From contig JAGXRZ010000046.1 in assembly GCA_018335585.1 (NCBI GenBank), positions 11,832-75,831 on the forward strand: 64,000 nt of DNA, in the 5' to 3' direction. Of the stretch, positions 9,258-50,929 are shown one piece after another. The stretch is from Selenomonadales bacterium (GTDB lineage Bacteria; Bacillota; UBA994). Within the stretch, counting starts at the first letter, position 1. Every line of letters starts with the position of its first letter. The notes beneath the pieces are model-generated. The model was not told where the DNA came from. It searched no databases and was given only the letters and a program-made list of their open reading frames with translations. Made by a program: the position numbers and the translations under genes.

Positions 9258-9333
<76 letters not shown>

Positions 9334-9344
9334 ACTTTGTGAAG

Positions 9345-9420: not shown

Positions 9421-9424
9421 AAAA

Positions 9425-9500: not shown

Positions 9501-9555
9501 GTGCATTTAGTAGTATACTTACTTGTTTAGCTCGCGTCAAGCAAAAAATGAATGT

Positions 9556-9640: not shown

Positions 9641-9644
9641 TGAA

Positions 9645-9719
9645 ATGGCACGCCCGAGAGGAATCGAACCTCCGCACCCGGATCCGGAGTCCGGCGCTCT
9701 ATCCACTGAGCTACGGGCG
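9645..9719 (-). tRNA. tRNA-Arg (anticodon CCG)
   Basis: GCGCCCGTAGCTCAGTGGATAGAGCGCCGGACTCCGGATCCGGGTGCGGAGGTTCGATTCCTCTCGGGCGTGCCA. Anticodon loop CTCCGGA. Confidence 0.75.
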
Positions 9720-9750
9720 CATTTATCACTAAGACAGTATATACGTTTGC

Positions 9751-17579: not shown

Positions 17580-18576
17580 GGGGATTATGGCGCGATAACA
17601 AGTAGGAACGCCAAGGGTTTTTAGCCCTTGGCGTTTTGTTGCCCTGCAGCAGAGCGTACGCCCTGCCTAGGAGGGAATATGCATCGCGCGTGGCACCTGT
17701 ATTCTGAAGAAGTTCCGCACCGAAGGCCAATACATCAGAGGCATCCTTAAGGCGTTCAAGATTACAAAATTCCCTAGCAAACGATTCTACCTGTGCCAGA
17801 GCAGCTTGGGGGTCGCGCAGGAGGCGGCACTTCTCTAGCGCCCATTGGCTTTTGAGTACATCCCATGTCTCCAGGCGGGCACCATCTGACTGTAACAGGT
17901 CGCCTAGCGTGGACTCAAGACACGCAGTGTCCTCTAGCGGAAGCACTTCCTTCGTGACCAGCAGCATTTCGCGATAGGCCTTGCATTTAGTGCTAATGGG
18001 CAATCCTGCAAGAGAAGAGACTTGTGCTAGCATCTGTTTAGCTTTTTCATATTCACCCATGCACACGCTACAAGCCATCGCGGCGATTAGCGCTTCGGCC
18101 TGCATCTCGAAAAAGTTGTGTTTTTCCGCCAACGCTACGGCTTTGCGCGAGAGGTTGAGCGCGGCTCGCCACTCGCCCTGACGAACTTTGCAGCTACATT
18201 CCCCTAACAAGGCACGCAGATTCGTCTCGGTTTCGTTGTCTTCTGAGCGCCCTAATCTCCGTCGGCATATCCTCGGTGCATGAACTCGTAACCATAGACA
18301 GGAGTTCTCGTGCCTCCGCGACCTTGCCTGTAGCCAGCAACCCTTTAGCTTGATTGAGAGTAGTTTCCACCCTTTGTCTAGCCTCGTCTATAGAATCGGG
18401 CAGGAAGTGGGACAGGGGTTCTCCTAGTCTCTCTGCTATTTGTCTCAGGTTTTCGGCTGATGGCTTTACTCTGCCGAGTTCTATAGCGGAATATAGGTGC
18501 GGGACGAAATGCCCTTGGCCAAGGTGGCCTGAGTCATGCCGCGCGCCTGCCGAGCTTCCCGAATACGTAAACCAAT
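17401..18576 (-). pseudogene. RNPP-type (HTH-XRE plus TPR) transcriptional regulator, disrupted by two frameshifts
   Basis: The HTH MIGLRIREARQARGMTQATLAKGISSRTYIPL* ends at 18481. A second frame reads ...LYSAIELGRVKPSAENLRQIAERLGEPLSHF...TEIRALRRQ...*. A third frame (ORF 17401..18210) reads MLGECSCKVRQGEW...EMQAEALIAAMACSVCMGEYEKAKQML, which are TPR-like helices. Confidence 0.5.
17610..17641 (+). terminator. Intrinsic terminator after the pilin gene
   Basis: GCCAAGGG-TTTTTAG-CCCTTGGC followed by GTTTTGTTG. The same hairpin recurs at 30514-30540 and, as a variant, at 6732-6754. Confidence 0.6.
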
Positions 18577-23485: not shown

Positions 23486-24442
23486 ATGACAAAACGGAGA
23501 AGAACGATTCTCGTTGTCGCGACCGTGCTCTTGCTGAGCGTAGTAGTCTACTCTGCGGTAACAGTGTTTTTCCCCACGCGCAGGTTGGCCCTGACGGCGT
23601 TCCACGGCCCACGGGGAAATGCAGTATTCGGTTTGCCACTTGTGGAGCCAACTTTTGAGAACCACGTGATTTGGTTATCCTCGAATATTATCATCGGCAC
23701 TATTTTACCGACACCGCCGGAAAGAGCCAGCGTTGGTTTCTACGACGTGAGGGTAGAAGAGAAAATACTTTCTCGCACTGAGGGGAACACAATTAAGGTG
23801 TCTGCGGGGAACCATCTGTTCGAAGTGGGCGAAACTTATCTAATGTTACTTTCGAGATTCGCTGTCACCGAGTACCCCTTTGATTTTTACGTAGCCGACC
23901 TTGAGTTTACATTTCGGGTAGACGCCCCGAAGGATCAAGTTCAGCGCCTTGTTAGGGTCTCCGAGAATCCGGAGGAGCGTGTGTTTATTGCCCCATTTCA
24001 GGAACCGCAATACAACTCGCTTGCGCGGCTGCGAGAGTACATTCGCAGTCTTGCCCCGGCCAATCACGTCCGCTCCTTCAGGTTCCAGAGGAACAGAGAT
24101 GCCCGCGTGATAGAAGAAGCTCCGAGTCAGGCAGCTCTCATCAGCATGGCCGATCACATTTTGTTGATTGAGATTACCTCAGCAAGACTGAACAGGAATC
24201 AGATGATAGCGGAGGTCAAATTTAAAACTCTCAATGAGTTTAAGGGCCAAGAGAAATATGACAAGACCGGATTGCTTCTGCCTGCCGGTGTGGAGATCAA
24301 CCAGCGCTACCTTGTTTTCTTGATCGAATCAGGAGAGGAAGCTGGCCATCTAACCTTGGCCACACGAAGAGGAAGTGTCGTGGCCGAAACTGATCCAGAG
24401 TTTAGCGCCCTGCTCGAAGAACTCACAGCATCAAGGCGTTAG
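23486..24442 (+). CDS. Hypothetical membrane-anchored protein (318 aa)
   Basis: Strong RBS AGAGGAGGAAG. One N-terminal TM helix (ILVVATVLLLSVVVYSAV), then a ~280-aa domain with no recognisable motif. Local GC is lower than in flanking genes. Confidence 0.4.
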   Translation: MTKRRRTILVVATVLLLSVVVYSAVTVFFPTRRLALTAFHGPRGNAVFGLPLVEPTFENHVIWLSSNIIIGTILPTPPERASVGFYDVRVEEKILSRTEGNTIKVSAGNHLFEVGETYLMLLSRFAVTEYPFDFYVADLEFTFRVDAPKDQVQRLVRVSENPEERVFIAPFQEPQYNSLARLREYIRSLAPANHVRSFRFQRNRDARVIEEAPSQAALISMADHILLIEITSARLNRNQMIAEVKFKTLNEFKGQEKYDKTGLLLPAGVEINQRYLVFLIESGEEAGHLTLATRRGSVVAETDPEFSALLEELTASRR

Positions 24443-30689: not shown

Positions 30690-32225
30690 CTATTCCCGGA
30701 ACAATGCCCGTCGGCGCGCCTGTATTTCGTGCGCAAAGTCTCGCTGCAGGTTTACATGAGTGGCCAAGAACTCCTGCCACCCCTGATTCTCGTCCAGGGA
30801 CTCCTCTTGCGTGATTTGAGCCAGTATCGCAGCTTTTTCGGCAGTTGTTTGCCCGAACGCGTCAGCTAACTTGCGCGCTAGAGTCTCGATGCGCAGGTTC
30901 TTATCTTCCGCACTCCAAGCCACCCAGATGTCTTGCATCTTTACTTCGCGTCTAAAACCCTCGCGGAAGCGTTCCTTCCAGCTGCTATATGCGGGTGCCA
31001 CTGCGTAGGCATCCCAAAACTGCTCAAGACGGTCAACATAGGCTCTTCGTATCGCTAAGTAACGGCTGTGCTGGGCGGGTGTCCATGCATGGAAGGGGTG
31101 ATGAATGTAAGGGTCGTGCAGTGAGAGGAAGCCGCCTACACCGCCTCTGCTGTATGCCTGCAACCAACTTCTACCCGCTGTCCAATGGCCAAAGATTTTT
31201 AGGGCATCCGCTTCCAAAAGGTCTAGCCGTTCCTGCGTCAAAATCTCTCCAGGTAACAAGCTTGCGCCAACACCACCGGCAGGCAAGATATGCATGGTTA
31301 CGCCAATCCTGCGGACTTCAATATCGTGCCCTATGTAGAAGTAGTCGACGGTCACAAAGGAACTTGTGTTGCGTGGGCGAGGGATGGCCTGTAGTACACT
31401 GCGCGGTACATGCCCCTGCACTCGCCGCACCAAATCGGACGTCCACACATCAAGGCCACCCGCCAGACGGTCGAGCGCAGTGTCTTTAGCGAGATGCTTC
31501 GGATAGTAGACCATTACTTCAGCCCATTCGCCTTGCATGGCTAGAACCCGTACATTCTCTCCCGTGCCCAGCTCGCCAAGAGCTTCGCCCGCTCTGCTCG
31601 GAGTGCGGTAAAGCGGGGTATCTTCTAACAAGTAGGCGATGTCGCGACCGTCGTTACGTCCCCACACTGGCAGACGAAGGGGTTTGTCTAGTCCCTCAGC
31701 CTGTGTAACTAGGGCTTGTGGAGAGGGCCAACTAGTAGAGAGCCAAACGAAATTATCGTTCTGCAGGCGTGAGCCGTCTACGGCGCGCAGTTCAGCCGGC
31801 AAGACCACGGTGACGAGAAAATTCGGCAAGCTACTCCCAGCGACATGATGCAATGACAGTGTTTTACCTTCAATGCGGTAGTAGAAATACTTCTGCTTTG
31901 GGGTTGCCACAGAAGGATACGCTACCACTGCCGATCCTCCGCTGAACAACAAAATTTCACAGCTGTTGTTTGGGTCTAACTCTTTGTTGAAAGTAAAGGT
32001 GATGGCGATGTCTTCGCTTGGCTGGAGCAAGTTGCGATGGAGGACTTCGACTCCCTCTGGTACTTCCACTATACCGTACCCCGAAATCTCTAACCTTGTG
32101 ACGGCGAGCCCCTTTTGGGAGGGCGCCTGTCGGCACCCTCCCGCAACGAGCGCTGCTACTGCGACGATTGTTACGATGAAAAGAACACCAAATCTCTTAG
32201 TTAAGGCCATTCTATTCGCCCCCAA
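30690..32225 (-). CDS. Lipoprotein with an SH3b-like domain, function unknown
   Basis: Lipobox-like VAGGC. TPLYRTPSRAGEALGELGTGENVRVLAMQGEWAEV resembles SH3b. The last ~30 codons lie inside the duplicated segment. Confidence 0.4.
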   Translation of the reverse strand: MGANRMALTKRFGVLFIVTIVAVAALVAGGCRQAPSQKGLAVTRLEISGYGIVEVPEGVEVLHRNLLQPSEDIAITFTFNKELDPNNSCEILLFSGGSAVVAYPSVATPKQKYFYYRIEGKTLSLHHVAGSSLPNFLVTVVLPAELRAVDGSRLQNDNFVWLSTSWPSPQALVTQAEGLDKPLRLPVWGRNDGRDIAYLLEDTPLYRTPSRAGEALGELGTGENVRVLAMQGEWAEVMVYYPKHLAKDTALDRLAGGLDVWTSDLVRRVQGHVPRSVLQAIPRPRNTSSFVTVDYFYIGHDIEVRRIGVTMHILPAGGVGASLLPGEILTQERLDLLEADALKIFGHWTAGRSWLQAYSRGGVGGFLSLHDPYIHHPFHAWTPAQHSRYLAIRRAYVDRLEQFWDAYAVAPAYSSWKERFREGFRREVKMQDIWVAWSAEDKNLRIETLARKLADAFGQTTAEKAAILAQITQEESLDENQGWQEFLATHVNLQRDFAHEIQARRRALFRE

Positions 32226-34292: not shown

Positions 34293-34499
34293 GAGGCCAC
34301 CTCCAAAATGCCGTTAATTCATTCTACCCAGATTATAGCTCTGTTGGCAACACTATCACGTGCCAATGATAGTGTCGCGTGACACTAAAAGGCCTCTCCA
34401 TCCTGCCTATCATCTCAGGCATCCCCATAATCCGAGGGAATTGGCCTCATCTCAGTTGCTTTGGATTTTGCGGTGACGTATACTGAGTGTATCAACTAA

Positions 34500-34700
34500 A
34501 TACGCTGTGGGGTGCCCCTAGCTGTAGGGGTTAAAAGGGAATCAGGTGAGAATCCTGAGCGGTCCCGCCACTGTAACGGGTAGTGCCTATACTTAACCAC
34601 TGTTCGCGCGCGAATGGGAAGGAACTAGGCGCGTCACTCCCGTAGTCAGGAAACCTGCCCCAGAGCCAAGACTCCGTCCTTCGGTCGAAAGGACTAGGTC
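34500..34700 (+). ncRNA. Cobalamin (B12) riboswitch
   Basis: AAAGGGAATCAGGTGAGAATCCTGAGCGGTCCCGCCACTGTAACGG matches the conserved cobalamin-riboswitch core. It lies 5' of btuF. Confidence 0.7.
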
Positions 34701-34853: not shown

Positions 34854-35753
34854 ATGAAACGCATTGCTGTATTGTCGCTCGTACTCGTTCTCGCTGTGGC
34901 CTTATCCGGTTGCGCCGTACTTAACGTACTGCGGCCGAGCATTGTCGTAACGGATGACCTAGACCGCGAAGTACGCCTAGAGCGCGCGGCGCAGCGCATT
35001 GTCTCACTTGCCCCGAGTAACACGGAAATGCTCTTTGCCTTAGGCCTAGCAGAAGAAACCGTCGGTGTGTCCGAGCTCTGCGACTACCCACCGCAAGCTG
35101 CCACGAAGGAACGCGTCGGCTCATTTGCCACCCCTTCCATCGAAAAAATAGTTAGCCTCAAACCCGACCTCGTCTTAGCCGCCAGCCTACACAAAACTGT
35201 CGGCGAGCAATTAGTTGAGCTAGGGATTCCGGTAATTGTCCTGCATCCCGAAAGCATTCAGGGAGTGCTAGATAACGCCGACCTCCTCGGGCGGGTCACC
35301 GGTCAGGCGCGCGGCGCGGCGGAGCTTAAGCGGCAAATCACGGCGGAGCTCAATGCCGTTGACGAGCGCGTCAAAACACTAACACAGGCACAGCGGCCGC
35401 TAGTGTACTACGAGGTATGGTCTAACCCCATCATGACGGCCGGGCCCAACACGTTTATCAATGAACTTATTACCCGCGCGGGCGGCGTGAACTTAGGGGC
35501 GACCGCAACGACTGCCTGGCCGACGCTCTCGCTGGAGGAGCTTTTGTCTAGGCAGCCACAGGTCATGTTCTACGGCCATGCCACCGAGACGGTAGAGCAA
35601 GTCAGGCAGCGCGCCGATTGGGGCAGCATCCCTGCCCTGCGTGACGGACGGGTGTACCTGGTAGACGAAAACCTTATCCTGCGGGCCGGGCCCCGCATCG
35701 GGCAAGCGCTGCGGCTTCTCTCCACCCAGTTACACCCCGACCTATGGCGGTGA
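34854..35753 (+). CDS. btuF: Cobalamin/siderophore-type periplasmic binding lipoprotein (BtuF-like)
   Basis: Lipobox LSGCAV. PBP family 8 fold; IVSLAPSNTEMLFALGL. Confidence 0.7.
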   Translation: MKRIAVLSLVLVLAVALSGCAVLNVLRPSIVVTDDLDREVRLERAAQRIVSLAPSNTEMLFALGLAEETVGVSELCDYPPQAATKERVGSFATPSIEKIVSLKPDLVLAASLHKTVGEQLVELGIPVIVLHPESIQGVLDNADLLGRVTGQARGAAELKRQITAELNAVDERVKTLTQAQRPLVYYEVWSNPIMTAGPNTFINELITRAGGVNLGATATTAWPTLSLEELLSRQPQVMFYGHATETVEQVRQRADWGSIPALRDGRVYLVDENLILRAGPRIGQALRLLSTQLHPDLWR

Positions 35754-36781
35754 ACAAATTAGCCGCCATGCGCGCGTGGTCGGCTAACGCCCTCTTAGGC
35801 ATCGTCTTAGCCCTAAGCATAGTCCTAAGCCTCGTGGTGGGGGCGGTCGACATCGCTCCCACCCGCCTGTTGGCGGCTTTGCAGGAATTAGTGACTGCAC
35901 CTGCGAACACTTGGTCAGTAGATGCTGTGATAGCCTGGCGACTGAGATTGCCACGCGCTCTTCTAGCGGCGGCTGTAGGCGCCTCCTTGGCGACGGCAGG
36001 TGCCATTATGCAGGGCCTCTTGCACAACAGCTTGGCCGACTCCTTTGTGCTTGGTGTATCCTCGGGCGCAAGCCTTGGCGCGGCGATTGCCCTGTTACTT
36101 GGCCTAAACTTTGCCTTCTTTGGCCTCGGAGCTGTAACTCCGCTGGCGTTTGGGGGGGCAATGCTCGCGCTCTTAGCTGTGCTCATCATCTCGCGGCGAG
36201 TGGCCGGCCAATCGACTTTAGGTTTGCTCTTGGCAGGCATCGCGATGAATAGCGCGCTTTCTGCGGTGGTGTCGTTCCTAGTGCTGCTAAGCCGCGAGCG
36301 AATCAACCCCCTGCTCTTCTGGCTGATGGGAGGGTTCGCCGGACGCGGCTGGAGTCACCTCGTCCTGATGCTCCCCTACTTACTTGTCGGCTTGGCAATC
36401 GCCTACGCCTACCACCGCCACCTCACCGCCATCAGTCTCGGTGATGCGACTGCGCACCATTTAGGGGTAGATGTAAGCCGTGTGCGCCTCTTGCTTTTGG
36501 GGACGGCAGCGTTACTTACGGCGGCAGCCGTATCAGTAAGCGGCATGATTGGCTTTGTAGGCTTGATGACACCGCATTTCGCGCGCATGCTTGTCGGGCA
36601 TCACTACCGTCGCCTTTTACCCACTGCGGCCTTATGCGGGGCAATTTTCCTGACTTGCGCCGATCTCTTGGCACGCGTTGCTATGCGCCCGCAGGAACTC
36701 CCGGTCGGGATTATAACTGCTTTGTGCGGCGGGCCGTTTTTCCTCTGGCTCTTGTCGCGCCAACGGCGGGAGGTGGCCTAA
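35744..36781 (+). CDS. btuC: FecCD-family ABC permease (BtuC-like)
   Basis: 345 aa, 9-10 TM helices, FecCD signature region. Confidence 0.75.
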   Translation: MAVNKLAAMRAWSANALLGIVLALSIVLSLVVGAVDIAPTRLLAALQELVTAPANTWSVDAVIAWRLRLPRALLAAAVGASLATAGAIMQGLLHNSLADSFVLGVSSGASLGAAIALLLGLNFAFFGLGAVTPLAFGGAMLALLAVLIISRRVAGQSTLGLLLAGIAMNSALSAVVSFLVLLSRERINPLLFWLMGGFAGRGWSHLVLMLPYLLVGLAIAYAYHRHLTAISLGDATAHHLGVDVSRVRLLLLGTAALLTAAAVSVSGMIGFVGLMTPHFARMLVGHHYRRLLPTAALCGAIFLTCADLLARVAMRPQELPVGIITALCGGPFFLWLLSRQRREVA

Positions 36782-37566
36782 TGCCTGCCATTAGTGTCGA
36801 GAAGGTTTCCTATCGTTTTGGGCAGCCGGTACTCCGTGAAGTCTCGGCGAGTTTTAGTCAAGGCACTTTTACGGGGATTCTGGGCGCTAACGGTGTGGGC
36901 AAGTCAACCCTAGTCAAGCTTATCAGCCGGTGGCTGCCCCTGCAGGAAGGGTCAATCCGCATCTACGACCGCCCACTCCAAGCGTTCACACAGCGTGAAT
37001 TGGCCCGCCATATCGCTGTCGTGGCGCAAGAACAGGCGGAGCTTACGGAACTTACGGTGCGGGAAATGGTGGAACTAGGCCGCATCCCACACCAAGGGCT
37101 ACTAGACTCCCCTTCTCAGGCTGACCACAACGCGGTGGAATCCGCACTAGCACAGACAGGGCTACAGGCACTGGCCACGCGGCGCTTCGGCACGCTGAGC
37201 GGCGGAGAGCGACAACGCGTAAGGGTTGCTATGGCCCTAGCGCAAGCGGCCGACATTTTAATCCTCGATGAGCCTACCACACACCTTGACATCAGGTACC
37301 AACTAGAACTCCTGACACTGCTCGCCGAACTCGTCGCCAAGGGCTACACGGTAATTGCGGTGCTACACGACATTAACTTAGCGGCACTTTTTTGCGACCA
37401 CCTGCTGCTTCTCGCTGACGGTCGAGTGCTTAGCGCCGGAACCCCGGCTGAGGTTATTACGCGTGAGGCCATCTTAGAGGCATACCAGTGCGATGTCACT
37501 GTGCTCCTACACCCTACGTCCGAGGCACCACAGATTGCGCTGCGGCGAAGTTACCAGGATGCTTAG
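36781..37566 (+). CDS. btuD: ABC ATP-binding protein (BtuD/FepC-like)
   Basis: GANGVGKST; LSGGERQRV; ILILDEPTTHLD. Start at Met 36781 (MPAISVEKVSY). Confidence 0.75.
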   Translation: MPAISVEKVSYRFGQPVLREVSASFSQGTFTGILGANGVGKSTLVKLISRWLPLQEGSIRIYDRPLQAFTQRELARHIAVVAQEQAELTELTVREMVELGRIPHQGLLDSPSQADHNAVESALAQTGLQALATRRFGTLSGGERQRVRVAMALAQAADILILDEPTTHLDIRYQLELLTLLAELVAKGYTVIAVLHDINLAALFCDHLLLLADGRVLSAGTPAEVITREAILEAYQCDVTVLLHPTSEAPQIALRRSYQDA

Positions 37567-39711: not shown

Positions 39712-40071
39712 CTAATCGCGCGTGTCTTCTTCCACGCGGATAATAACGCGGTTTGGCATGCACACGATGACTTCGCCTGGACGGCTTTTCTTCCCCATGC
39801 CGATACACACTTTATCCGGGCAATCTGCCTCCACGACACGAATGTACTCCCCGTCTACTTCAATCAGCAGGTCTCCGCGCGTCCCGCGCACCGTAAAGCG
39901 GCGCAGCGCGTCTCCTTGGCGGAGCGGCACTTGCTCTACTTCACGGTTATCCACGGCAATTATCGCCACCCCGCCGGGCCTCACCGTAAAGTGGCGGTAA
40001 AGGACCCAGGTGCCTGCCATAAGCATTACGGCAATTATGGCAAGCAAAATCTTCTTGTCTAGCGCGGTCAA
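39712..40071 (-). CDS. NusG domain II-containing membrane-anchored protein
   Basis: 119 aa. TM anchor then ...GGVAIIAVDNREVEQVPLRQGDALRRFTVRG...VIVCMPNRVIIRVEE. Confidence 0.45.
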   Translation of the reverse strand: MTALDKKILLAIIAVMLMAGTWVLYRHFTVRPGGVAIIAVDNREVEQVPLRQGDALRRFTVRGTRGDLLIEVDGEYIRVVEADCPDKVCIGMGKKSRPGEVIVCMPNRVIIRVEEDTRD

Positions 40072-40089: not shown

Positions 40090-42195
40090 TTACCTTAGGA
40101 CTCTGATTCCAACTACATACAAGACCACCAGCACCCCAAGCATCACCCCGGCTACCACCAGTGACCCCAACGTGACGTTCTGTGGGTTCCAGACTACCGG
40201 TTGATGTTCGCCGGTTTCGTTTTCGCTAGCCGCCTCATTGCGCATGCGTCGTGTTGTTTGCACCGCCGCATGCCCTACGTGAGTGAAGCTCTCCTCAAGC
40301 CCCTGCTCGAGCCCGCGCGCTTGCTCTATTACTAGGTTTGTCGCGCGGCCCGCCACCTCATAGCCTTCGTCGAGCATGTCGTCTAACTTCTTGACGCGGC
40401 GGAGAACACTATGGGACACACTGCCGCTCCTGTCGTAGAGGTCGCAGATGCCGCCCTCCACACGCGTAACATAGCTACAGCAAAGCCTAAGGAAACCTTG
40501 ATACACAGGGCGATAGAACACCGCCTCGACAGACAGCCACCAAGGCACAGCGCCCTCGCCAAACCGATAGTGGCGCGCCGCTAGGAAAATTAGTACCCCA
40601 AGGGCTACAGGAATAGCCACCGCAACATACGAGCTCGTAGTCCACAGCTTTACGCCAGATAGCTGCTGCATCATTACGCCAAAGTCGACTACGGTGCTCG
40701 CCGCACTCCTGGCCATTAGGCCAATGAAACGCTCCGGGAACAAACCTATCGCCACGATACTAGCCGCAGTAAGGCCGAGCACCGCCGGGATAGCTACGCC
40801 TTCCTTGGTTCCCTGCGTTATTTGCCCTCGGTTCGCGCCTAGGAACACTCCGTAGTAGAGCTTAACGAAGTACGCGGCCGTCAAAGCTGAGCCCAGTATA
40901 AACAGCCATACAGCCCAAGTCAGGAGCCCTTCGCCGTGGTACGAAGCAGCCTTCTCGATGCCGTACTGAATAAGTTTCTTGCTGCCAAACCCGCTAAAAC
41001 CGGGGACTCCAAGGACGGCTAGGGAGGCAATCAAAGTCGTAACAGCCGTAAAGGGCAATACCTTTGCCATGCCCCCAAGTTTGCCTAGGTCGAGTGACTG
41101 GGCGCGCAGGTACACCGACCCCATCATCATAAATAGCCCCGCCTTAAACACAGCATGATTAAAGGCGTGAAACACGGCGGCGGTGTAGGGTAGGCCACCC
41201 TTGGCGCCTAAGTATGCGGCACAGCCGACGGCGAGCATCACATAGCCCATCTGACTGATACTGGAATAGGCCAAGAGGCGCTTGACGTTCCTCTGCAACA
41301 AAGCCATAATCGCGCCGCAAAGAATCGTGAGCAGGGCTACCCAGATAAGTACGAAGCCAATCTGCTGTGGGATGGCGGCGGTTGCCTTCGCCGGAACCGG
41401 CAATGACAATGTAACGGTAAGAACGCTCAGGATGCCGTAGAAGCCGGTCTTGCCCATCACGCCCGAAAGCAACGCCGTGCCGGGGGCAGGCGCCACAGGG
41501 TAGGCGTGCGGTATCCATACGTGCAGAGGAACCAACCCTGCCTTGACCCCAAACCCAATGAGAAACACTAGCGCTACCACATACGGACTGATTGTTCCAC
41601 CCTGCAGTATGTCAAGCACCGGCACAATGTCTGCCGTACCTGTCGTCCAAACCAAGAGCAGAATGCCAAGCAGTAACACCAGCCCTCCGGCCACACCCAT
41701 GTAGAGATAGCTATCGCCTGCGCGCATAGCTTCGTCGTCTTCGTCGTGAATGACAAGCGGATAAGCGGCGAAAGTCATGATTTCAAAGAACAGGAACAAC
41801 GTAAAGTAGTCTCCGGCCAGAAACACACCCAAGCAACCGCTGAGGCTCACCAAGAGGAAGCTCGAAAAGCGCGTCTGCGAGTGACTGCTCTGCATATAGC
41901 TCACGGCATACACCGTGATTAACGCCCATAGCCCTGCTGACAGTAGGGCAAAAAGTGTACCTAGGTCTGTCGGGCGAAAGCTAAGCCCGTAATCGACAAG
42001 GCGGAAGAAGACGAGCTCTAAGCGGTGCGGGGGATTTAGGACATAGACTGCTCCGGCAGCAGCCACTGCCGCCAAAGCAGAGGCAATCGTTATCGCGTCG
42101 CGCAGTCGCTGATTTCGGCGGCAAAGAAAGACCAGAACTGCACCAAGGAGGGGCAGCAGTATGGGCGCGAGGAGCAAGAGGTCTAGCGAACGCAC
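40090..42195 (-). CDS. mrpA: MrpA/NuoL-like proton-conducting antiporter subunit with an atypical C-terminal extension
   Basis: 701 aa. N-terminal ~480 aa are a NuoL/MrpA/MrpD-type membrane core. The C-terminal ~200 aa are a soluble region plus a final TM helix. Confidence 0.65.
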   Translation of the reverse strand: MRSLDLLLLAPILLPLLGAVLVFLCRRNQRLRDAITIASALAAVAAAGAVYVLNPPHRLELVFFRLVDYGLSFRPTDLGTLFALLSAGLWALITVYAVSYMQSSHSQTRFSSFLLVSLSGCLGVFLAGDYFTLFLFFEIMTFAAYPLVIHDEDDEAMRAGDSYLYMGVAGGLVLLLGILLLVWTTGTADIVPVLDILQGGTISPYVVALVFLIGFGVKAGLVPLHVWIPHAYPVAPAPGTALLSGVMGKTGFYGILSVLTVTLSLPVPAKATAAIPQQIGFVLIWVALLTILCGAIMALLQRNVKRLLAYSSISQMGYVMLAVGCAAYLGAKGGLPYTAAVFHAFNHAVFKAGLFMMMGSVYLRAQSLDLGKLGGMAKVLPFTAVTTLIASLAVLGVPGFSGFGSKKLIQYGIEKAASYHGEGLLTWAVWLFILGSALTAAYFVKLYYGVFLGANRGQITQGTKEGVAIPAVLGLTAASIVAIGLFPERFIGLMARSAASTVVDFGVMMQQLSGVKLWTTSSYVAVAIPVALGVLIFLAARHYRFGEGAVPWWLSVEAVFYRPVYQGFLRLCCSYVTRVEGGICDLYDRSGSVSHSVLRRVKKLDDMLDEGYEVAGRATNLVIEQARGLEQGLEESFTHVGHAAVQTTRRMRNEAASENETGEHQPVVWNPQNVTLGSLVVAGVMLGVLVVLYVVGIRVLR

Positions 42196-45536: not shown

Positions 45537-45963
45537 CCGGTCCTGCGCCCCCTTCCAGCAGTTCTTGGAACAGCGTAAACACCGTGCCGGCGACCTTTGC
45601 TCCGATGCCTAGTGTCACCAGCAAGATCATGCCGCTGCTCCAGAGGCGACCCGGTTCCCCGGTCGGAAATACTCCCTGGTTGGTAAGGAAGTGTCGTCCT
45701 ACCAAGATACCCACAAGGCCCGCGCCTACGTAGATTAGTGCTCCGCCTACCTCAAACAGGAGCGATGTCTCGTGCTTTAGGCGGTGCTTCTTGGCCGTAA
45801 ACCGATAGACTAGGCTATAGAAGATAAAGCTCGCGCCGATGATGGTGCCGCCGGAAAAGCCCCCACCTGGCGAAAGGTGGCCGTGAAAAAGAATGTACGC
45901 GCCAAAGAGCTGCGTGGCTGGGATAAGCACTCTCCCAAGCATCTCTAGAATCATGTCATGCAT
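45523..45963 (-). CDS. mrpB: MrpB-like subunit
   Basis: 146 aa; ...GHLSPGGGFSGGTIIGASFIFY is the MnhB motif. Confidence 0.6.
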   Translation of the reverse strand: MHDMILEMLGRVLIPATQLFGAYILFHGHLSPGGGFSGGTIIGASFIFYSLVYRFTAKKHRLKHETSLLFEVGGALIYVGAGLVGILVGRHFLTNQGVFPTGEPGRLWSSGMILLVTLGIGAKVAGTVFTLFQELLEGGAGPDGHH

Positions 45964-46237
45964 GTTCGTACCCTCCGTAGAGCGCGGCCCCTACAGCTAC
46001 GACCGCCACAAACAAGACGGTGGCCTCGCCTAAGGTGTCGTAAGCGCGGTAGTCGATGATAATCGCGGCGATAGTGTTAAGTGCACCGGTATCGCGCACA
46101 CTATCGGATAGGTACTTCTGCATAATGCCTTGGTGAGCGGGAGCGCTCGCGTCGCCATACAGCGGCATCTCCGCAACCATCAGCGTCAGCAGCACGCCGA
46201 TGCCAAGCAAAATTATTACGGTTATGGTCTTTCTCAT
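45956..46237 (-). CDS. MrpB-related small subunit (MbhE-like)
   Basis: 93 aa, two TM helices. Confidence 0.5.
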   Translation of the reverse strand: MRKTITVIILLGIGVLLTLMVAEMPLYGDASAPAHQGIMQKYLSDSVRDTGALNTIAAIIIDYRAYDTLGEATVLFVAVVAVGAALYGGYEHA

Positions 46238-46781: not shown

Positions 46782-47051
46782 TCATACGATGGTGCCCCGT
46801 TCGATGTAGCGAGCCACTCCTATAGTTAAAAGGAAGCTTATTAGCGCGTAGACGATGGCGACGTCAAGGTAATACGGGACTTCATGAAAAATGTAGCCAA
46901 TGAGCATCAGCACGACTACCGTTTTTGTGCCGATAACGTTAATCGCCACAACTCTATCAGCGGGCGTCGGGCCCACAACTGCGCGATACAAGGACGCGAA
47001 AGTGAGCAACATGAGCCCTAAACACGTAACCAAAAGTACGGTTCGTTCCAT
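46782..47051 (-). CDS. mrpF: MrpF/MnhF
   Basis: 89 aa; ...RVVAINVIGTKTVVVLMLIGYIF. Confidence 0.65.
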   Translation of the reverse strand: MERTVLLVTCLGLMLLTFASLYRAVVGPTPADRVVAINVIGTKTVVVLMLIGYIFHEVPYYLDVAIVYALISFLLTIGVARYIERGTIV

Positions 47052-47545
47052 TAATGTCGCCTCTCTATCTCTGCCAGCAAATTCTCGATGTGCCAGCCGG
47101 CAAGTCCGGCCGCGGCGCCGTCCGTCAGGGCATGTACGACGAAGTTTCCTTGCGCCGGCGCTTCGACCGAGATTGTGCCCGGCGTCAGGGTAATGCTGTT
47201 CGCCAGGAATACGCGCATCATCGGCTCCTTGAGCTTGCTCTCGTGCGTGACAAACTGCGGCTTTATGTCTAACTTGCGCGCGAAAGCGAGTTCGGCAACT
47301 TGCACGGAGGCCTTGATGACGTCAACGATTAAGTACCTAACATAAGTCAGCCAAGCGGAAAGGTTTGTACGGCTGATGTGCAGGTCATTGGTGAAACTAA
47401 GCAGCAGGTCGCGGTTAACAAAGGTTACTAACCCCGCCACCAGCCAACCGGTAATTACAGACTGAACATCAAAACTTTGCGCAAACAGCATCCAAAGCAG
47501 GAACAAAGCCAGAGTCCAGCCGAATAGTCGAGTATACCGCGACAC
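47051..47545 (-). CDS. mrpE: MrpE/MnhE
   Basis: 164 aa; MnhE family. Confidence 0.65.
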   Translation of the reverse strand: MSRYTRLFGWTLALFLLWMLFAQSFDVQSVITGWLVAGLVTFVNRDLLLSFTNDLHISRTNLSAWLTYVRYLIVDVIKASVQVAELAFARKLDIKPQFVTHESKLKEPMMRVFLANSITLTPGTISVEAPAQGNFVVHALTDGAAAGLAGWHIENLLAEIERRH

Positions 47546-47625
47546 AAAAATCCCCCCACAAAGTTAAGAGCTACCACCAACATGACGGCAGCCCTTATAG
47601 CTCACTCTGTTCTCGCGCGTCTATC

Positions 47626-48465
47626 CTACCTGTTAGGTGCCTTTTCTAATGCATCGATGACTGCTGACACAAAGCCTTCACTCGAGCCGGTCGCGCCCGA
47701 GACGGCGTCAACTTCTGGGTCTTGCTCGCGGATTACGGCCTTAGCCAGCTCCACGAAGGCGGGATTAGCATACTCCGGCGTGTCTTGATGGGCCAAAACC
47801 CTGACACTTTCCACTCGGCCGGACTTGACGGTGACTAAAACTCTAACCGGCCCAAACAAGCCGCTTCCTTCACCCTGATACTCGCCGTCAGGAATAGTCG
47901 CGAGGTCGCGCACAAATCTGTCGACCGGAACAGGCGGCGCTGCGCCTAGGACGTGCTGTCCAAACATGAGCAGTGCATTCCTCACCCCGGCAGTTACGCC
48001 ACGTACCGACAATGTCGCGCCGGAGATGGCTTGGACATCGCCTCCCACCGCCAGTGGGTCGCGCGCCGTCTTGCCGGTGAACTGACGCAGAAACGCCGAG
48101 GCCGCTACCCGGTCTCCGATTCCCGGCGTCTCGCGGTGCCCGGTAATGCGCACGCCCTGCGCCGCTCCGGACATGTCGACTGCGACTAACAGGTTGATAG
48201 GACCTGCGTAGCCGCTACCGGCGCTCTGCATTATTGCTCCCACGGGCTTTCCGTCTTTAGTGGCTAGAAAGAAGGTGACACCGTCACGCGTTGTTTCCTC
48301 GAATCTGTCGGCGACAGGCAAAAGATCGCCGAGTGCCCGTTGTAGCTCAGCTTGTTTGCGCTCGGCTATGACGACGCTAGTGACAGAGTGAGTGGCCGCT
48401 AAGGCTGCTCCCGCAATAGCGCAGATTAGAGCGAGTGTGACGCTTAGCTTAAAAACTTCCCTCAT
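47626..48465 (-). CDS. Membrane-anchored protein with two FMN-binding domains (RnfG/NqrC/PplA-like)
   Basis: Domain 1: GYAGPINLLVAVDMSGAAQGVRITGHRETPGIGDRV...ISGATLSVRGVTAGVRNAL. Domain 2: ...VKSGRVESVRVLAHQDTPEYANP...DAVSGATGSSEGFVSAV. The Ser/Thr in the S/TGAT motifs are the covalent FMN-attachment sites. Confidence 0.7.
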   Translation of the reverse strand: MREVFKLSVTLALICAIAGAALAATHSVTSVVIAERKQAELQRALGDLLPVADRFEETTRDGVTFFLATKDGKPVGAIMQSAGSGYAGPINLLVAVDMSGAAQGVRITGHRETPGIGDRVAASAFLRQFTGKTARDPLAVGGDVQAISGATLSVRGVTAGVRNALLMFGQHVLGAAPPVPVDRFVRDLATIPDGEYQGEGSGLFGPVRVLVTVKSGRVESVRVLAHQDTPEYANPAFVELAKAVIREQDPEVDAVSGATGSSEGFVSAVIDALEKAPNR

Positions 48466-48530
48466 GTGTAATCCCCTACCTCGGTGATTGCTTGACTATT
48501 TCTTTGCTTATTCTAGCACAGTGTAGCCCC

Positions 48531-49559
48531 TTAACCAAGAGAAAGATGTCCGCGCGAGTAAAGCGCCAAAAACTCTCGCGCTGTGCGCTCCCACGTAAAA
48601 ACGCGACTGCGCAAGAACCCGGCCTGTGCCATTGTCTTCTGTAGCATGGAGTTTGAGATTAGCGCGAGCAGCCCGTTAGCCCACGCCTTAGCGTCAGCAA
48701 ATTGGCGAATAAAATGTCCGGCTTGCGGTCCTACCACCTCGGGCACGCTCCCGCGCAGGCTAGCCACAACCGGTAGCGCCGTGGCCATTGCGGGTAGACA
48801 ATCGTGTCCCGCCGCGGCGCGGTCTTGTGTCGGGTAAAGGAACATGTCGGCCGCTCGATAGATTTTTGGCTGAAGAGGGGTGCTGCCAACGACCAAAATC
48901 TTAACGCGGCTCAGTTCTGTGCCAAGCGGACAATTTTGCAGTAGCTCCAGCCCTTTTGGGTCATGCGCTGTGTGGGCCAACAACAGAACCTTCTCGTCCG
49001 GCTCCACTTCCCAGAGCAGGCGCTGCTTTTGTCGCTCCCGCATAAGTCCTCTATCGCCGTGTGCGGGAAGGAAGACCGACCCATCAACACCGGGGTAAAC
49101 GACGTTCACGCGCAAGCGCAAGCCATAGAACCTCCCGATAAAGAGGTTCTTTAAGAAGAAGCTATGGACGACTACTTGGTCGACTAAGCAGAGCGACAGG
49201 CGCAGGTCACGGCGTGAAATTGCGTCTTGGGCAAGGGGCCGCAGCGACTGCAAGTGGAGCAGCACATAGCCTTGATAGGTTTGGCGTAAGGCGGGCACTA
49301 GCCACGGGCAGTTCTCAACGTGCACTGCTGTCGGCCGCGTTTCCCGAAGTACCTGTCGCAGCACTTCCGCAGAAAAAACGAGCGGCCAACGGTATAGGCG
49401 TATTCCGAGCACCTCCGGTGCTTGCATGCCGGCCGGCAACAGGATCGATACCTCTATTCCTTGGCGCGACAGCAGTGCGGCCACCGTAAAGACTGACGGA
49501 TGTGACTCGTCCACTTCGAGCGTCGAACCGTCCGGCGGCAGTACATATAGAACTTTCAC
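48531..49559 (-). CDS. GT4-family glycosyltransferase
   Basis: ...ILVVGSTPLQPKIYRAADMFLYPT... The listed ORF 48531..49790 extends through the repeat element. A GTG start at 49559 after GGGGAG fits the family length. Confidence 0.65.
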   Translation of the reverse strand: MKVLYVLPPDGSTLEVDESHPSVFTVAALLSRQGIEVSILLPAGMQAPEVLGIRLYRWPLVFSAEVLRQVLRETRPTAVHVENCPWLVPALRQTYQGYVLLHLQSLRPLAQDAISRRDLRLSLCLVDQVVVHSFFLKNLFIGRFYGLRLRVNVVYPGVDGSVFLPAHGDRGLMRERQKQRLLWEVEPDEKVLLLAHTAHDPKGLELLQNCPLGTELSRVKILVVGSTPLQPKIYRAADMFLYPTQDRAAAGHDCLPAMATALPVVASLRGSVPEVVGPQAGHFIRQFADAKAWANGLLALISNSMLQKTMAQAGFLRSRVFTWERTAREFLALYSRGHLSLG

Positions 49560-49823: not shown

Positions 49824-50501
49824 TCATAGGTTACTAAAGATCAAATAAAGCCCTACGCCGACAAACAGCAGGCCGGCTACGTACGCGCCATAGTCCCAGT
49901 AGCGACTTAGACCGCGCCAAGCGCGGAGGGCTCCCGCTGCGCTTCCCACAAGCAGCAGCGGCACGCCCTGCCCTATCCCAAACGCAAACAGCAGTAGCCC
50001 ACCCGTATAGATGCGCCCGGAGGCCGCAGCAACACCGACGATGACGCCAAGTACTGGCCCCGCGCAGGGTGACGCTGCAAACCCAAACACCAATCCCACT
50101 ATGTAGGCCCCGAGCAACCCATCCGTGCGCAGAGGAAGCTTACTAATGGCGGAAACAGGTAGCTGAATGAGCTGCATCAGACTAAGTCCCATCAAAACCA
50201 GCACTGCGCCTAGCAAGAGCGGCAGAAAGTCGGAGGTGATGCCAATCATGCCGCCTAGGAGGGCTGCTACCACCCCGAGCCCCGTAAAGGCGCTGGCCAG
50301 CCCGAGGATTAGACAGAGCACAAGGAGCAGGCTACGGCGCGTCTTTATGCCCTTAAAGACGCCTACATAGCCCAAAACCAACGGCATCATCGCAATGATG
50401 CAGGGAGAGAGGCTAGTTAATACCCCGACTGAAAATGCAGCCAGCAAGGCCCAACCAAGCTGCCCCGCCAGTATGTTCTGTAGCGTTTCCAGTGCAATCA
50501 T
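49824..50501 (-). CDS. ccdA: Cytochrome c-type biogenesis / thiol-disulfide transmembrane electron carrier CcdA
   Basis: ...LSPCIIAMMPLVLGYVG... and ...AASPCAGPVLGVIVGVAA; the two conserved Cys of DsbD/CcdA. Confidence 0.8.
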   Translation of the reverse strand: MIALETLQNILAGQLGWALLAAFSVGVLTSLSPCIIAMMPLVLGYVGVFKGIKTRRSLLLVLCLILGLASAFTGLGVVAALLGGMIGITSDFLPLLLGAVLVLMGLSLMQLIQLPVSAISKLPLRTDGLLGAYIVGLVFGFAASPCAGPVLGVIVGVAAASGRIYTGGLLLFAFGIGQGVPLLLVGSAAGALRAWRGLSRYWDYGAYVAGLLFVGVGLYLIFSNL

Positions 50502-50929
50502 GGGTCAAGCCCCTGCAGCAGAAACTGCCGCAGTGTTTCCTTAGACATACCCCCGACGCGTTGCTGTTCACGCCCGGTTGCGGAAATCATCACGAAGTGA
50601 GGGATAGTCCGCACGTTGAAGCGCAGAACGAGCTCCCCCGTCTCCCTTTCCGTCGTATCCGCGACAACAAAGGCGACCTGTGTGCCAAACTCGGCCTTAA
50701 GTTCCCGCACCGCGGGATACATTATTACACAGGCGCGTCAAGTGTCCGCGGTAATCATAACGAACACCGGCCTGCTCTCCGCTATCGCGCGCTGAAACGC
50801 CGTAAAGGGCTGGCGGGTCTTTAGGTCGTCGCCGCCACCCGGCCGAGCCAGAAACCAGGCCACGGCTGCGACGAGCAAAACAAGTACCAGAGATACGCTA
50901 CGTTTCACTCTTATCGCCCTCCCAGACAT
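50498..50929 (-). CDS. Membrane-anchored thioredoxin-like protein with an in-frame TGA at the CxxC position (candidate selenoprotein, UxxC)
   Basis: ORFs 50738..50929 and 50498..50722 share one frame, separated only by TGA at 50738-50740. The joined sequence ...VFVMITADT-[TGA]-RACVIMYPAVRELKAEFG... places the stop exactly where the first Cys of the thioredoxin WCxxC motif sits. A likely GTG start at about 50907 follows GGGAGG. Confidence 0.45.

What the first reader, a model, noticed from the sequence alone, without database searches (positions are those of the whole stretch)
47626..48465. Extracytoplasmic double-FMN-binding protein positioned as the first gene of an Mbh-type Mrp module
The 279-aa protein has an N-terminal anchor and two FMN_bind domains with S/TGAT flavinylation motifs. 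This resembles RnfG/NqrC and the PplA flavoprotein of flavin-based extracellular electron transfer. It sits 80 nt upstream of, and on the same strand as, a 10-gene Mrp cluster ordered E-F-G-B-B-B-C-D-D-A'. That order is characteristic of the membrane arm of Mbh/Mbx-type respiratory complexes rather than of classical mrpABCDEFG.

No hydrogenase, FeS or quinone-binding subunits are present. A covalently flavinylated periplasmic protein attached to a proton/sodium-translocating Mrp module would be an unusual redox-coupled ion pump or sensor arrangement. As far as I know it is not a described complex.
Basis: partly seen in the sequence, partly recalled or inferred. Interest (0 to 1): 0.65.

Follow-up and report, generated by a model that had tools for sequence, protein, structure and literature searches.

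The report
Stray rnfG gene beside Mrp antiporter
The two-flavin membrane protein in front of the Mrp antiporter genes is a left-behind subunit gene (rnfG) of the Rnf ion pump, whose whole operon still sits at this spot in related bacteria, so it is probably not a new redox-driven Mrp pump.

Summary
[quoted passage not shown] It lies 80 nt upstream of a 10-gene Mbh-like mrp cluster.

The interpretation does not hold well. The first 172 residues are a full-length RnfG (PDB profile E 2.5e-36; Foldseek top hits are RnfG chains). In the sister class Dethiobacteria and other Bacillota, the orthologue lies inside rnfCDGEAB, and that operon sits directly upstream of the same mrp cluster (13 loci). In the window's lineage, class UBA994 from hyperalkaline serpentinite springs, only rnfG remains at the locus.

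Three results argue against a flavoprotein-Mrp complex:
- The same mrp type occurs elsewhere with no FMN gene.
- Related orphan rnfG-like genes occur with no mrp nearby.
- One complete genome with such an orphan is reported to carry rnfCDEAB without G.

Best reading: a trans-encoded, doubly flavinylated RnfG of a split Rnf system, under strong purifying selection, next to an ordinary Na+/H+ antiporter. Whether an Rnf core or ApbE exists elsewhere in this genome could not be tested.

A conserved terminator-like hairpin separates the gene from mrpE. A selenocysteine thioredoxin-like gene lies upstream.

The parts
47626..48465 (-). rnfG-like gene, 279 aa. It has an N-terminal TM helix, an RnfG-type FMN_bind domain (SGAT, T151), a roughly 20-residue low-confidence linker, and a second FMN_bind domain (SGAT, T259).
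   Evidence: Pfam. Alignment A1. PDB profile search: positions 4-172 match RnfG 7zc6_G (E 2.5e-36) and 9eri_G (8e-31), against about 1e-9 for NqrC; positions 192-271 match 8p2b CbFMN4 domain 1 (5e-20). AF2 model. Foldseek. dN/dS 0.04-0.07.
48510..48538 (-). Promoter-like element TTGGTT-17 nt-TAGAAT, with TGc before the -10 hexamer. It overlaps the stop codon of the upstream glycosyltransferase gene. The RBS GGTAGGGGA follows.
   Evidence: Read by eye from the sequence. The -35 hexamer matches only 3 of 6, so the consensus scan does not list it. Inference only.
47566..47596 (-). Conserved stem-loop (AAGGGCUGCCGUC-AUG-UUGGUGGUAGCUCUU) in the rnfG-like/mrpE spacer. A U-rich tail follows (47558-47569), then the mrpE RBS GGGGGG (47552-47557). 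It is terminator- or attenuator-like.
   Evidence: Fold, (z-score only -0.65 for the whole spacer). Conserved in 9 UBA994-class loci, with better U-tracts in L013, L005 and L007. RNAalifold gives 15 pairs, 2 with compensatory changes. No Rfam match.
47051..47545 (-). mrpE (MNHE), 164 aa
   Evidence: Pfam PF01899, E 3.8e-29
46782..47051 (-). mrpF, 89 aa
   Evidence: Pfam PF04066
46460..46768 (-). mrpG, 102 aa
   Evidence: Pfam PF03334
46234..46476 (-). MbhD-type subunit, 80 aa. The start is set at the internal ATG, as in relatives.
   Evidence: Pfam PF13244. Orthologues of 80 aa.
45956..46237 (-). MbhE-type subunit, 93 aa
   Evidence: Pfam PF20501
45523..45963 (-). MnhB/MrpB-type subunit, 146 aa
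   Evidence: Pfam PF04039
45165..45536 (-). mrpC (NuoK-like), 123 aa
   Evidence: Pfam PF00420
43706..45172 (-). Antiporter-like subunit MrpD1, 488 aa
   Evidence: Pfam PF00361
42209..43690 (-). Antiporter-like subunit MrpD2, 493 aa. Its orthologue directly follows rnfB in loci that lack the other mrp genes.
   Evidence: Pfam. 52-57% identity to L002, L092, L091 and L001. Alignment A5.
40090..42195 (-). The antiporter module is followed by helical repeats and one C-terminal TM helix.
   Evidence: Pfam. Best PDB matches are MbhH 6cfw_H (5.5e-51) and MBS 6u8y. Alignment A6 shows a variable number of hydrophilic repeats before a conserved terminal TM helix.
39712..40071 (-). NusG_II (DUF1312) membrane-anchored protein, 119 aa. 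It is the last gene of the cluster.
   Evidence: Pfam PF07009, E 2.5e-26. It follows the long antiporter subunit in UBA994 loci and in rnf-linked loci L002 and L099.
49824..50501 (-). ccdA (DsbD_TM), 225 aa. It is a conserved upstream neighbour. A GT4 gene lies between it and the rnfG-like gene here, but not in L006, L007 or L012.
   Evidence: Pfam. Contexts.
50498..50908 (-). Membrane-anchored thioredoxin-like gene with an in-frame TGA (50738-50740) at the first Cys of CxxC. Probable selenoprotein (UxxC).
   Evidence: TGA in 9 loci against TGT/TGC in L006 and L095. Hairpin downstream of the TGA.

Best explanation
The gene is an rnfG orthologue: the extracytoplasmic, covalently flavinylated subunit of the Rnf ferredoxin:NAD+ ion pump. 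It carries one extra FMN_bind domain, a 'multi-flavinylated RnfG'.

The ancestor of the Bacillota_D lineages had rnfCDGEAB immediately upstream of this Mbh-like mrp cluster, and many relatives still do. In class UBA994, to which the window belongs, rnfCD and rnfEAB are gone from the locus and rnfG stayed.

Most likely the protein still works as the G subunit of an Rnf core encoded elsewhere as a G-less rnfCDEAB operon. Its second flavin may pass electrons onward to an extracytoplasmic acceptor. The Mrp complex is then an ordinary Na+(K+)/H+ antiporter that these hyperalkaliphiles need. The two are neighbours, and probably co-regulated, because both belong to the same Na+/H+ cycle.

What is shown: identity as RnfG, the ancestral rnf-mrp linkage, purifying selection, and the absence of rnf core genes and apbE from the 64 kb. 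What is inferred: flavinylation, the present partner, and co-transcription through a leaky hairpin.
For: Identity as RnfG:
- The family profile matches full-length RnfG of solved Rnf complexes (7zc6_G E 2.5e-36, 9eri_G 8e-31, 8ahx_G 5e-23) far better than NqrC (about 1e-9).
- Foldseek on the model puts RnfG chains first, with TM-score 0.72 and 0.69 normalised to target length.

Orthologues inside rnf operons, followed by mrp genes:
- Orthologues at 38-42% identity, with 2-4 FMN_bind domains, lie inside rnfCDGEAB in Ca. Contubernalis, Dethiobacter alkaliphilus and MAGs.
- In 9 loci the operon is followed by the same 10-gene mrp cluster. The rnfB-mrpE gaps are 56-88 nt in L098, L099, L100 and L102.
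- In 4 loci it is followed by the orthologous MrpD2 plus long-subunit pair.

Split rnf systems exist:
- L102 has rnfC-D-E-A-B with no G, in front of mrp.
- The complete genome of Ca. Fermentithermobacillus carboniphilus is reported to carry 'rnfCDEAB' (PMC10215811). It has an orphan triple-FMN_bind RnfG-like gene far from any rnf or mrp gene.
- That orphan groups with the UBA994 proteins in an NJ tree.

Mrp does not need the gene: the same mrp gene order occurs with unrelated upstream genes in L107, L108, L110, L114, L120 and L137.

The gene is functional: dN/dS is 0.04-0.07, and both SGAT threonines are invariant.
Against: No rnfC, D, E, A, B or apbE gene was found in the 64-kb window, nor in the blast-annotated flanks (up to 10 kb each side) of the UBA994-class loci or the gene lists. 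The rest of those genomes could not be searched, so the predicted G-less rnf operon is untested.

In every UBA994-class locus whose downstream flank is held, the gene keeps its place and strand in front of mrpE. The spacer is short and leaves no room for an mrp promoter after the hairpin. This looks more like one transcription unit with mrp than like a stray gene.

NusG_II, another extracytoplasmic protein of the rnf-linked block, is also retained.

The NJ tree rests on 172 positions and has no support values.

'rnfCDEAB' in the cited paper is the authors' gene list. It is not an explicit statement that G is missing from the operon.
Confidence: 0.55

Rival explanations
1. One reading: the flavoprotein is a true subunit of the Mrp complex. 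It would make the complex a redox-driven or redox-gated ion translocator, or a sensor.
For: The gene order rnfG-like, mrp (10 genes), NusG_II is strictly conserved across class UBA994 at 48-99% identity. All genes are on the same strand, the spacer is 51-101 nt, and there is no space for a promoter after the hairpin. Purifying selection is as strong as on the mrp genes. Rnf and mrp genes are linked across many lineages.
Against: No electron donor or acceptor module is present in the cluster. The same Mrp type exists without any FMN_bind gene. Orphan relatives exist without Mrp nearby. The protein is a full-length RnfG whose orthologues sit inside rnf operons. A conserved terminator-like hairpin separates it from mrpE. 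UBA994 loci share extended synteny from yhaM to yegS, so conservation of order within the class is partly just relatedness.
Confidence: 0.08
2. The protein is a stand-alone extracytoplasmic electron-transfer flavoprotein, independent of Rnf. It would be fed across the membrane by the CcdA/thioredoxin-like (selenocysteine) pair encoded just upstream, as in a 'DsbD-type' flavinylation-associated system.
For: The thioredoxin-like and ccdA genes lie immediately upstream on the same strand in all UBA994-class loci, and directly adjacent in L006, L007 and L012. Meheust et al. 2021 describe flavinylation clusters containing DsbD (PF02683) and thioredoxin-like proteins, and multi-flavinylated proteins as electron conduits (PMC8238504).
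Against: The hallmark partners of those DsbD systems (ApbE, DUF3570, DUF4266) are absent here. A glycosyltransferase gene lies between ccdA and the rnfG-like gene in the window. Orphan relatives in L020, L173 and L175 have no CcdA neighbour. CcdA with a membrane thioredoxin is a common housekeeping pair in Firmicutes (general knowledge).
Confidence: 0.12
3. The gene is an evolutionary relic that no longer has a redox role. It would be, for example, a non-flavinylated structural protein, or on its way to being lost.
For: The Rnf core genes and apbE are missing from the window. P0006 has TNAT in place of SGAT in domain 1. In MAG HKB212 the gene is split into two ORFs.
Against: dN/dS is 0.04-0.07. 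Both flavinylated threonines and the surrounding motifs are invariant across 15 sequences down to 37% identity. The number of domains has grown to three in some members. The HKB212 contig also has a split mrpD2, which suggests assembly errors.
Confidence: 0.05

Closest known systems
RnfG subunit of the Rnf complex (Clostridium tetanomorphum 7ZC6, Acetobacterium woodii 9ERI, Azotobacter vinelandii 8AHX)
   Same: Residues 1-172 align over the full length of RnfG, covering the N-terminal TM helix and the FMN_bind domain with the flavinylated Thr in I(S/T)GAT. The predicted fold is the same. Orthologues lie between rnfD and rnfE.
   Different: There is an extra C-terminal FMN_bind domain. No rnfC, D, E, A or B is at the locus or within the 64 kb. 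The gene lies directly in front of mrpE.
Multi-flavinylated RnfGs and multi-flavinylated proteins (Meheust et al. 2021, eLife, PMC8238504; CbFMN4 and SaFMN3 domains, PDB 8P2B and 8P2A)
   Same: The protein has more than one extracytosolic FMN_bind domain, each with an ApbE-type motif. Domain 2 matches CbFMN4 domain 1 (E 5e-20; TM-score 0.88). The paper reports RNF clusters with multi-flavinylated RnfG.
   Different: Here the multi-flavinylated RnfG is outside any rnf cluster and next to mrp. That paper mentions neither Mrp, antiporters nor NusG_II (0 occurrences).
Mbh/Mbs membrane arm and Mrp Na+/H+ antiporters (P. furiosus MBH 6CFW, MBS 6U8Y, B. pseudofirmus Mrp 7QRU)
   Same: The subunit families and the order E-F-G-MbhD-MbhE-MnhB-C-D match. 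The antiporter-like subunits are closest to MbhH and MbsH. 'MrpEFGBBBCD, MrpDD' has been annotated as a Na+/H+ antiporter in a serpentinite-spring MAG (PMC6305446).
   Different: There are no hydrogenase or sulfane-reductase subunits. There are three antiporter-like subunits, the last with a repeat-containing helical tail and a terminal TM helix.
PplA, the two-FMN lipoprotein of Listeria flavin-based extracellular electron transfer
   Same: Both have two FMN_bind domains displayed outside the membrane.
   Different: The anchor is an RnfG-type TM helix, and residues ALIC give no canonical lipobox. Domain 1 is RnfG-type. No ndh2, eetA/B, dmkA/B or fmnB gene is in the window.
NqrC of Na+-NQR
   Same: Same fold class and the same flavinylation motif.
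   Different: The match is much weaker than to RnfG: E about 1e-9 against 1e-36, and TM-score 0.35-0.5 against 0.7. No nqr genes are present.

Membership tests
RnfG (Rnf complex subunit G) | Full-length sequence and fold similarity to RnfG of solved Rnf complexes | tested here: met
   Profile against PDB: 7zc6_G E 2.5e-36 over profile positions 4-172. Foldseek: 9eri_G and 7zc6_G rank first, TM-score 0.72 and 0.69 normalised to target.
RnfG (Rnf complex subunit G) | Single N-terminal TM helix with an extracytoplasmic FMN_bind domain carrying the flavinylated Thr in an (S/T)GA(T/S) motif | tested here: met
   Helix at residues 2-48 in the model. ISGAT with T151 invariant. Pfam FMN_bind.
RnfG (Rnf complex subunit G) | Encoded with rnfC, D, E, A and B, and assembled with RnfD/E/A | tested here: not met
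   No rnf core gene is in the 64-kb window (tblastn; Pfam) or in the flanks of UBA994-class loci. Orthologues in Dethiobacteria and other lineages do meet it. Presence elsewhere in the genome could not be tested.
RnfG (Rnf complex subunit G) | Covalent FMN attached by ApbE | not testable with these tools
   The motifs are present. No ApbE (PF02424) was found among the window ORFs scanned. The rest of the genome was not available.
Multi-flavinylated extracytosolic proteins (Meheust et al. 2021) | More than one FMN_bind domain on a secreted or membrane-anchored protein, each with a flavinylation motif | tested here: met
   Two PF04205 stretches. SGAT at residues 148-151 and 256-259. Definition taken from PMC8238504.
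Mrp antiporter, Mbh-like gene order | MrpE, F, G, B-type, C and at least two antiporter-like (D/A) subunits in one cluster, in the order EFG-B-B-B-C-D... | tested here: met
   Pfam. The same order occurs in more than 25 related loci.
Mrp antiporter, Mbh-like gene order | Cation/proton antiport activity | not testable with these tools
   There is only indirect support. Invariant charged residues sit in the antiporter-like subunits: E141, K220, H227, K251 and K396 in MrpD2 (A5), and E138, K218, H225, K249 and K406 in the long subunit (A6). I did not map them onto the solved antiporter-like subunits.
Mbh/Mbs/Mbx-type respiratory complex | Peripheral redox module (NiFe hydrogenase-like large and small subunits, FeS subunits, NuoH-like MbhM) | tested here: not met
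   None of these families is in the cluster or the window.
PplA-type flavin-based extracellular electron transfer locus | Lipoprotein anchor, and co-located ndh2, eetA/eetB, dmkA/B and fmnB (ApbE) | tested here: not met
   No canonical lipobox is present (A-L-I-C15, read). None of these genes is in the window.
DsbD-type flavinylation-associated system (Meheust et al. 2021) | DsbD (PF02683) in the cluster together with ApbE, DUF3570, a thioredoxin-like protein and DUF4266 | tested here: inconclusive
   CcdA (PF02683) and a thioredoxin-like gene lie two to three genes upstream. ApbE, DUF3570 and DUF4266 are absent. Definition taken.

The most novel reading that the evidence does not exclude
Rnf and this Mbh-like Mrp module may be more than neighbours. 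In Bacillota_D and allied lineages they could form one functional or physical unit, an Rnf redox module working with antiporter-like subunits in the way complex I does.

Four observations fit this:
- The mrp genes are embedded between rnfB and the rnf-associated NusG_II/Gx genes.
- The MrpD2 plus long-subunit pair stays glued to rnfB even where mrpEFGBBBCD1 is absent from the locus.
- The rnfB-mrpE gaps are only 56-88 nt in four loci.
- In UBA994, RnfG and NusG_II are exactly the parts kept with Mrp.

On this reading RnfG would be an interface or regulatory subunit of that super-assembly.
Probability: 0.1. Interest if true: 0.8.

Novelty: new variant of a known kind. Interest (0 to 1): 0.38.

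Why it matters
As found, this corrects an attractive but unsupported idea: there is no evidence for a flavin-driven Mrp pump.

What remains is modestly useful in three ways.
- An rnf-mrp gene block is conserved across alkaliphilic and digester Bacillota. In the papers I searched it was not discussed as a unit.
- There are clear cases of split rnf systems: G-less operons, orphan multi-flavin RnfG genes, and one RnfD-RnfG fusion. Pathway callers that require rnfG in the operon, or that score an orphan rnfG as 'Rnf present', will misjudge such genomes.
- The organisms come from pH 11-12 serpentinite springs, where the way a Na+/H+ cycle is built is a real open question. Dethiobacter alkaliphilus is cultured, so it gives a direct way to test whether Rnf and Mrp associate.

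Tried and rejected
1. I looked for the Rnf core in the same genome. A tblastn search of Contubernalis RnfC/D/E/A/B against the window found nothing. An RnfD homologue search returned 7829 hits at E 1e-40 or better, with only the best 120 listed, all at least 56% identical and none attributable to UBA994 MAGs. This approach cannot answer the question.

2. The supplement of the paper describing the closest MAGs (PMC9751293) gives taxonomy and genome size for GPS119 and HKB212 but no Rnf table. A literature search for 'UBA994' gave nothing relevant.

It worked with 7 sequences.

4. I tested the spacer hairpin as a known riboswitch, for example a Na+ or Li+ riboswitch. There was no Rfam match even at E up to 5.

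5. A sigma-70 scan found no promoter in the 80-nt spacer. It did not report the hairpin as a terminator, because the window's U-tract is weak.

6. Literature searches for an Rnf-Mrp or antiporter-like association and for DUF1312/NusG_II function found nothing on point.

7. I rejected PplA membership and a DsbD-system reading (see the membership tests).

8. My first annotation script timed out.

Full report
**1. The observation**

The ORF at 47626-48465 on the minus strand is real and encodes 279 aa. Pfam finds two FMN_bind (PF04205) domains, whole-protein E 1.6e-35. Each domain carries the ApbE-type motif: DVQAISGAT ending at T151, and DAVSGAT ending at T259. Both threonines are invariant in a 15-sequence alignment that reaches down to 37% identity. 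An AlphaFold2 model (mean pLDDT 82.9) shows a long N-terminal helix at residues 2-48 and two alpha/beta domains joined by a low-confidence linker around residues 171-190.

They are MrpE, F and G, then MbhD, MbhE and MnhB, then MrpC, then three antiporter-like subunits. The last of these is 701 aa. Its antiporter module is most similar to MbhH of the Pyrococcus MBH complex (6cfw_H, E 5.5e-51) and to MBS subunits. Its C-terminal 200 residues are hydrophilic helical repeats that end in one TM helix. The repeat number varies between lineages. No hydrogenase, FeS or quinone-site subunit is present in the cluster or in the whole window.

**2. What the protein is**

A profile of the family matches full-length RnfG from the solved Rnf complexes. 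The matches are C. tetanomorphum 7zc6_G (E 2.5e-36, profile positions 4-172), A. woodii 9eri_G (8e-31) and A. vinelandii 8ahx_G (5e-23). NqrC reaches only about 1e-9. Foldseek on the model gives the same ranking, with TM-score 0.72 and 0.69 normalised to the RnfG chains. The second domain matches a domain of a characterised multi-flavin protein, CbFMN4 domain 1 (8p2b, E 5e-20, TM-score 0.88). The protein is therefore an RnfG with one extra flavin domain. That is an architecture already described as 'multi-flavinylated RnfG' (PMC8238504).

**3. Where the window comes from**

The closest genomes are MAGs GPS119 (85% protein identity), HKB212 (83%) and UBA994 (78%). The supplement of Nobu et al. 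2022 places GPS119 and HKB212 in GTDB Firmicutes_D, class UBA994 ('SRB2'). They have genomes of 1.75-1.95 Mb and come from the hyperalkaline serpentinite springs The Cedars and Hakuba Happo (PMC9751293).

**4. Context in relatives**

*4a. Within class UBA994.* The order yhaM, thioredoxin-like, ccdA, (GT4), rnfG-like, mrp (10 genes), NusG_II is kept in every locus whose downstream flank is held. These are L005-L014, L016 and L093-L095, at 48-99% identity of the RnfG-like protein, which has two or three FMN_bind domains. L015 ends just after the rnfG-like gene.

*4b. In the sister class Dethiobacteria and other Bacillota.* The orthologue, at 38-42% identity and with 2-4 FMN_bind domains, is the G gene of a complete rnfCDGEAB operon, and that operon sits immediately upstream of the same mrp cluster. 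Examples are Ca. Contubernalis alkaliaceticus, Dethiobacter alkaliphilus, and L177, L098, L099, L100, L105 and L111. The rnfB-mrpE gaps are 56-88 nt in L098, L099, L100 and L102. The Contubernalis genome paper lists the two sets of locus tags as separate systems and makes no comment on their adjacency (PMC10608574).

*4c. In four further loci (L002, L092, L101, L176).* Here rnfB is followed only by two antiporter-like genes, which are the orthologues of the window's MrpD2 (52-57% identity) and its long subunit. NusG_II and/or a Gx-transporter-type gene come next, followed in L002, L092 and L176 by maf and radC (and mreB in L002 and L092); the genes after Gx in L101 were not identified.

*4d. 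In more distant loci with the same mrp order (MrpD2 46% identity or less).* The genes upstream of mrpE are unrelated: sigma-54 activators, a P-type ATPase, and others.

The FMN gene is thus not a component of this Mrp type. It is what is left of an rnf operon that sat in front of it.

**5. Is the orphan a relic or a working gene?**

dN/dS against three orthologues is 0.04-0.07, the same as for the mrp genes and flanking housekeeping genes. dS is saturated, so the ratio is only approximate. The flavinylation motifs are invariant. The gene is functional.

**6. Whom does it work with?**

Three observations point to an Rnf core encoded elsewhere.

- Split rnf systems exist. Locus L102 has rnfC-D-E-A-B with rnfD overlapping rnfE and no G, again in front of mrp. 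L105 has an RnfD-RnfG fusion.
- In an NJ tree of the RnfG domain, the UBA994 proteins group with other orphans. These are P0014, P0015 and the Fermentithermobacillaceae proteins, and the group is sister to the operon-encoded Dethiobacteria RnfGs. The tree has no support values. These other orphans have no rnf, mrp or ccdA neighbour.
- For the one complete genome among them, Ca. Fermentithermobacillus carboniphilus Bu02, the authors report 'genes rnfCDEAB' (PMC10215811). A G-less operon plus an orphan G is the simplest reading of that genome.

I therefore predict a G-less rnfCDEAB operon and an apbE gene elsewhere in UBA994 genomes. I could not test this. The window has neither, the flanks of the related loci have no rnf core gene, and an RnfD homologue search was too crowded to resolve.

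**7. Operon structure**

A promoter-like TTGGTT-17-TAGAAT lies at 48510-48538, just upstream of the gene. I read it by eye, and the consensus scan does not list it.

The 80-nt spacer contains a stem-loop at 47566-47596, followed by a U-rich stretch and then the mrpE ribosome-binding site. The hairpin is conserved in nine UBA994-class loci. Some have much better U-tracts than the window, for example TTCTCTCTTTTTT in L013. Two base pairs change in a compensatory way. It matches no Rfam family.

Because no promoter can fit between the hairpin and mrpE, the likeliest arrangement is one transcription unit with partial termination or 3'-end stabilisation after the rnfG-like gene. This is inference.

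**8. Mechanism proposed**

- Shown: an RnfG-type membrane-anchored protein with two flavinylation motifs; an Mrp cluster of the Mbh-like type; an ancestral rnf-mrp linkage.
- Inferred: ApbE attaches FMN to T151 and T259 outside the membrane. Domain 1 docks on RnfD/E as in the solved complexes. Domain 2 offers a side exit for electrons, as proposed for multi-flavinylated RnfGs (PMC8238504).
- Also inferred, from established alkaliphile bioenergetics rather than from these data: Rnf builds a Na+ or H+ gradient and membrane potential, and Mrp uses that potential to bring H+ in and push Na+ out at external pH 11-12.

**9. Rivals**

A flavoprotein-Mrp complex (8%) is disfavoured by points 4 and 6 and by the lack of any donor or acceptor. 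A CcdA/thioredoxin-fed stand-alone flavoprotein (12%) is possible but lacks the hallmark genes of the described DsbD-type systems. A dead relic (5%) is contradicted by the selection data.

**10. Novelty and score**

The parts are known: RnfG, multi-flavinylated RnfG, and Mrp of the EFGBBBCD plus DD type, which is annotated as an antiporter in PMC6305446. The arrangement is new: an orphan multi-flavin rnfG retained in front of mrp, and a widely conserved rnf-mrp block that the papers I searched do not discuss as a unit.

The most novel reading still open is that Rnf and the antiporter-like subunits act as one assembly. I give it about 10%.

Interest is 0.38. The finding is a useful correction with a testable side hypothesis, not a new kind of machine.

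Noticed in passing
window 50498-50908 (-), TGA at 50738-50740: The thioredoxin-like gene upstream of ccdA has an in-frame TGA exactly at the first Cys of its CxxC motif (…ITADT-TGA-RAC…). The TGA is conserved in 9 loci from several species, while L006 and L095 have TGT/TGC there. The N-terminal part encodes a TM anchor, and a hairpin follows the TGA. It is probably a membrane-anchored selenocysteine (UxxC) thioredoxin-like protein that gene callers split into two small ORFs.
   Followed up: partly
L002 13008-16660; L092 14360-18252; L101 9965-13750; L176 14156-18086: In four rnf loci only the MrpD2 and long-subunit pair follows rnfB; mrpEFG-BBB-C-D1 are absent from the locus. Closely related MAGs differ in this respect (L176 against L177). 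Whether the missing eight genes lie elsewhere, or the pair works with Rnf, is unknown.
   Followed up: partly
L102 1-4000; L105 1207-2784: L102 is an rnf operon with no rnfG: rnfD at 875-1831 overlaps rnfE at 1828-2430. L105 has an RnfD-RnfG fusion protein of 525 aa with two FMN_bind domains. Both lie in front of mrp clusters in the same metagenome series (Ga0207421).
   Followed up: partly
window 40090-40800 (-), and alignment A6: The tail of the long antiporter subunit consists of a variable number of roughly 25-residue hydrophilic repeats before a conserved terminal TM helix. The protein ranges from 643 to 881 aa across lineages. L098 carries three tandem copies of this subunit. The tail may be a length-adjustable lateral helix.
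   Followed up: no
window 34493-34676 (+): A cobalamin riboswitch (109 bits) lies upstream of a periplasmic binding protein, a FecCD permease and an ABC ATPase (34854-37566). This is presumably a B12 uptake operon.
   Followed up: no
window 687-9720: A probable integrated element lies next to a cluster of 8 tRNA genes (6772-9720, - strand). It comprises an S24/LexA-like repressor (687-1574), a TnpB/Cas12f-like IS605 OrfB (1522-2682), a C5 DNA methylase plus an EcoO109I-type restriction enzyme (3457-5498), and a tyrosine integrase (5499-6677) ending about 100 nt from the first tRNA.
   Followed up: no
window 21246-22853 (-): A DDE (IS4-like) transposase lies in a lower-GC stretch (0.49-0.53 over 18-34 kb). 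The stretch also holds several ORFs with no Pfam match (17401-18210, 23486-24442, 30690-32225).
   Followed up: no
L014 9995-10839 and 14775-15486: In MAG HKB212 both the rnfG-like gene and mrpD2 are split into two ORFs. Assembly or sequencing errors seem more likely than two pseudogenes.
   Followed up: no
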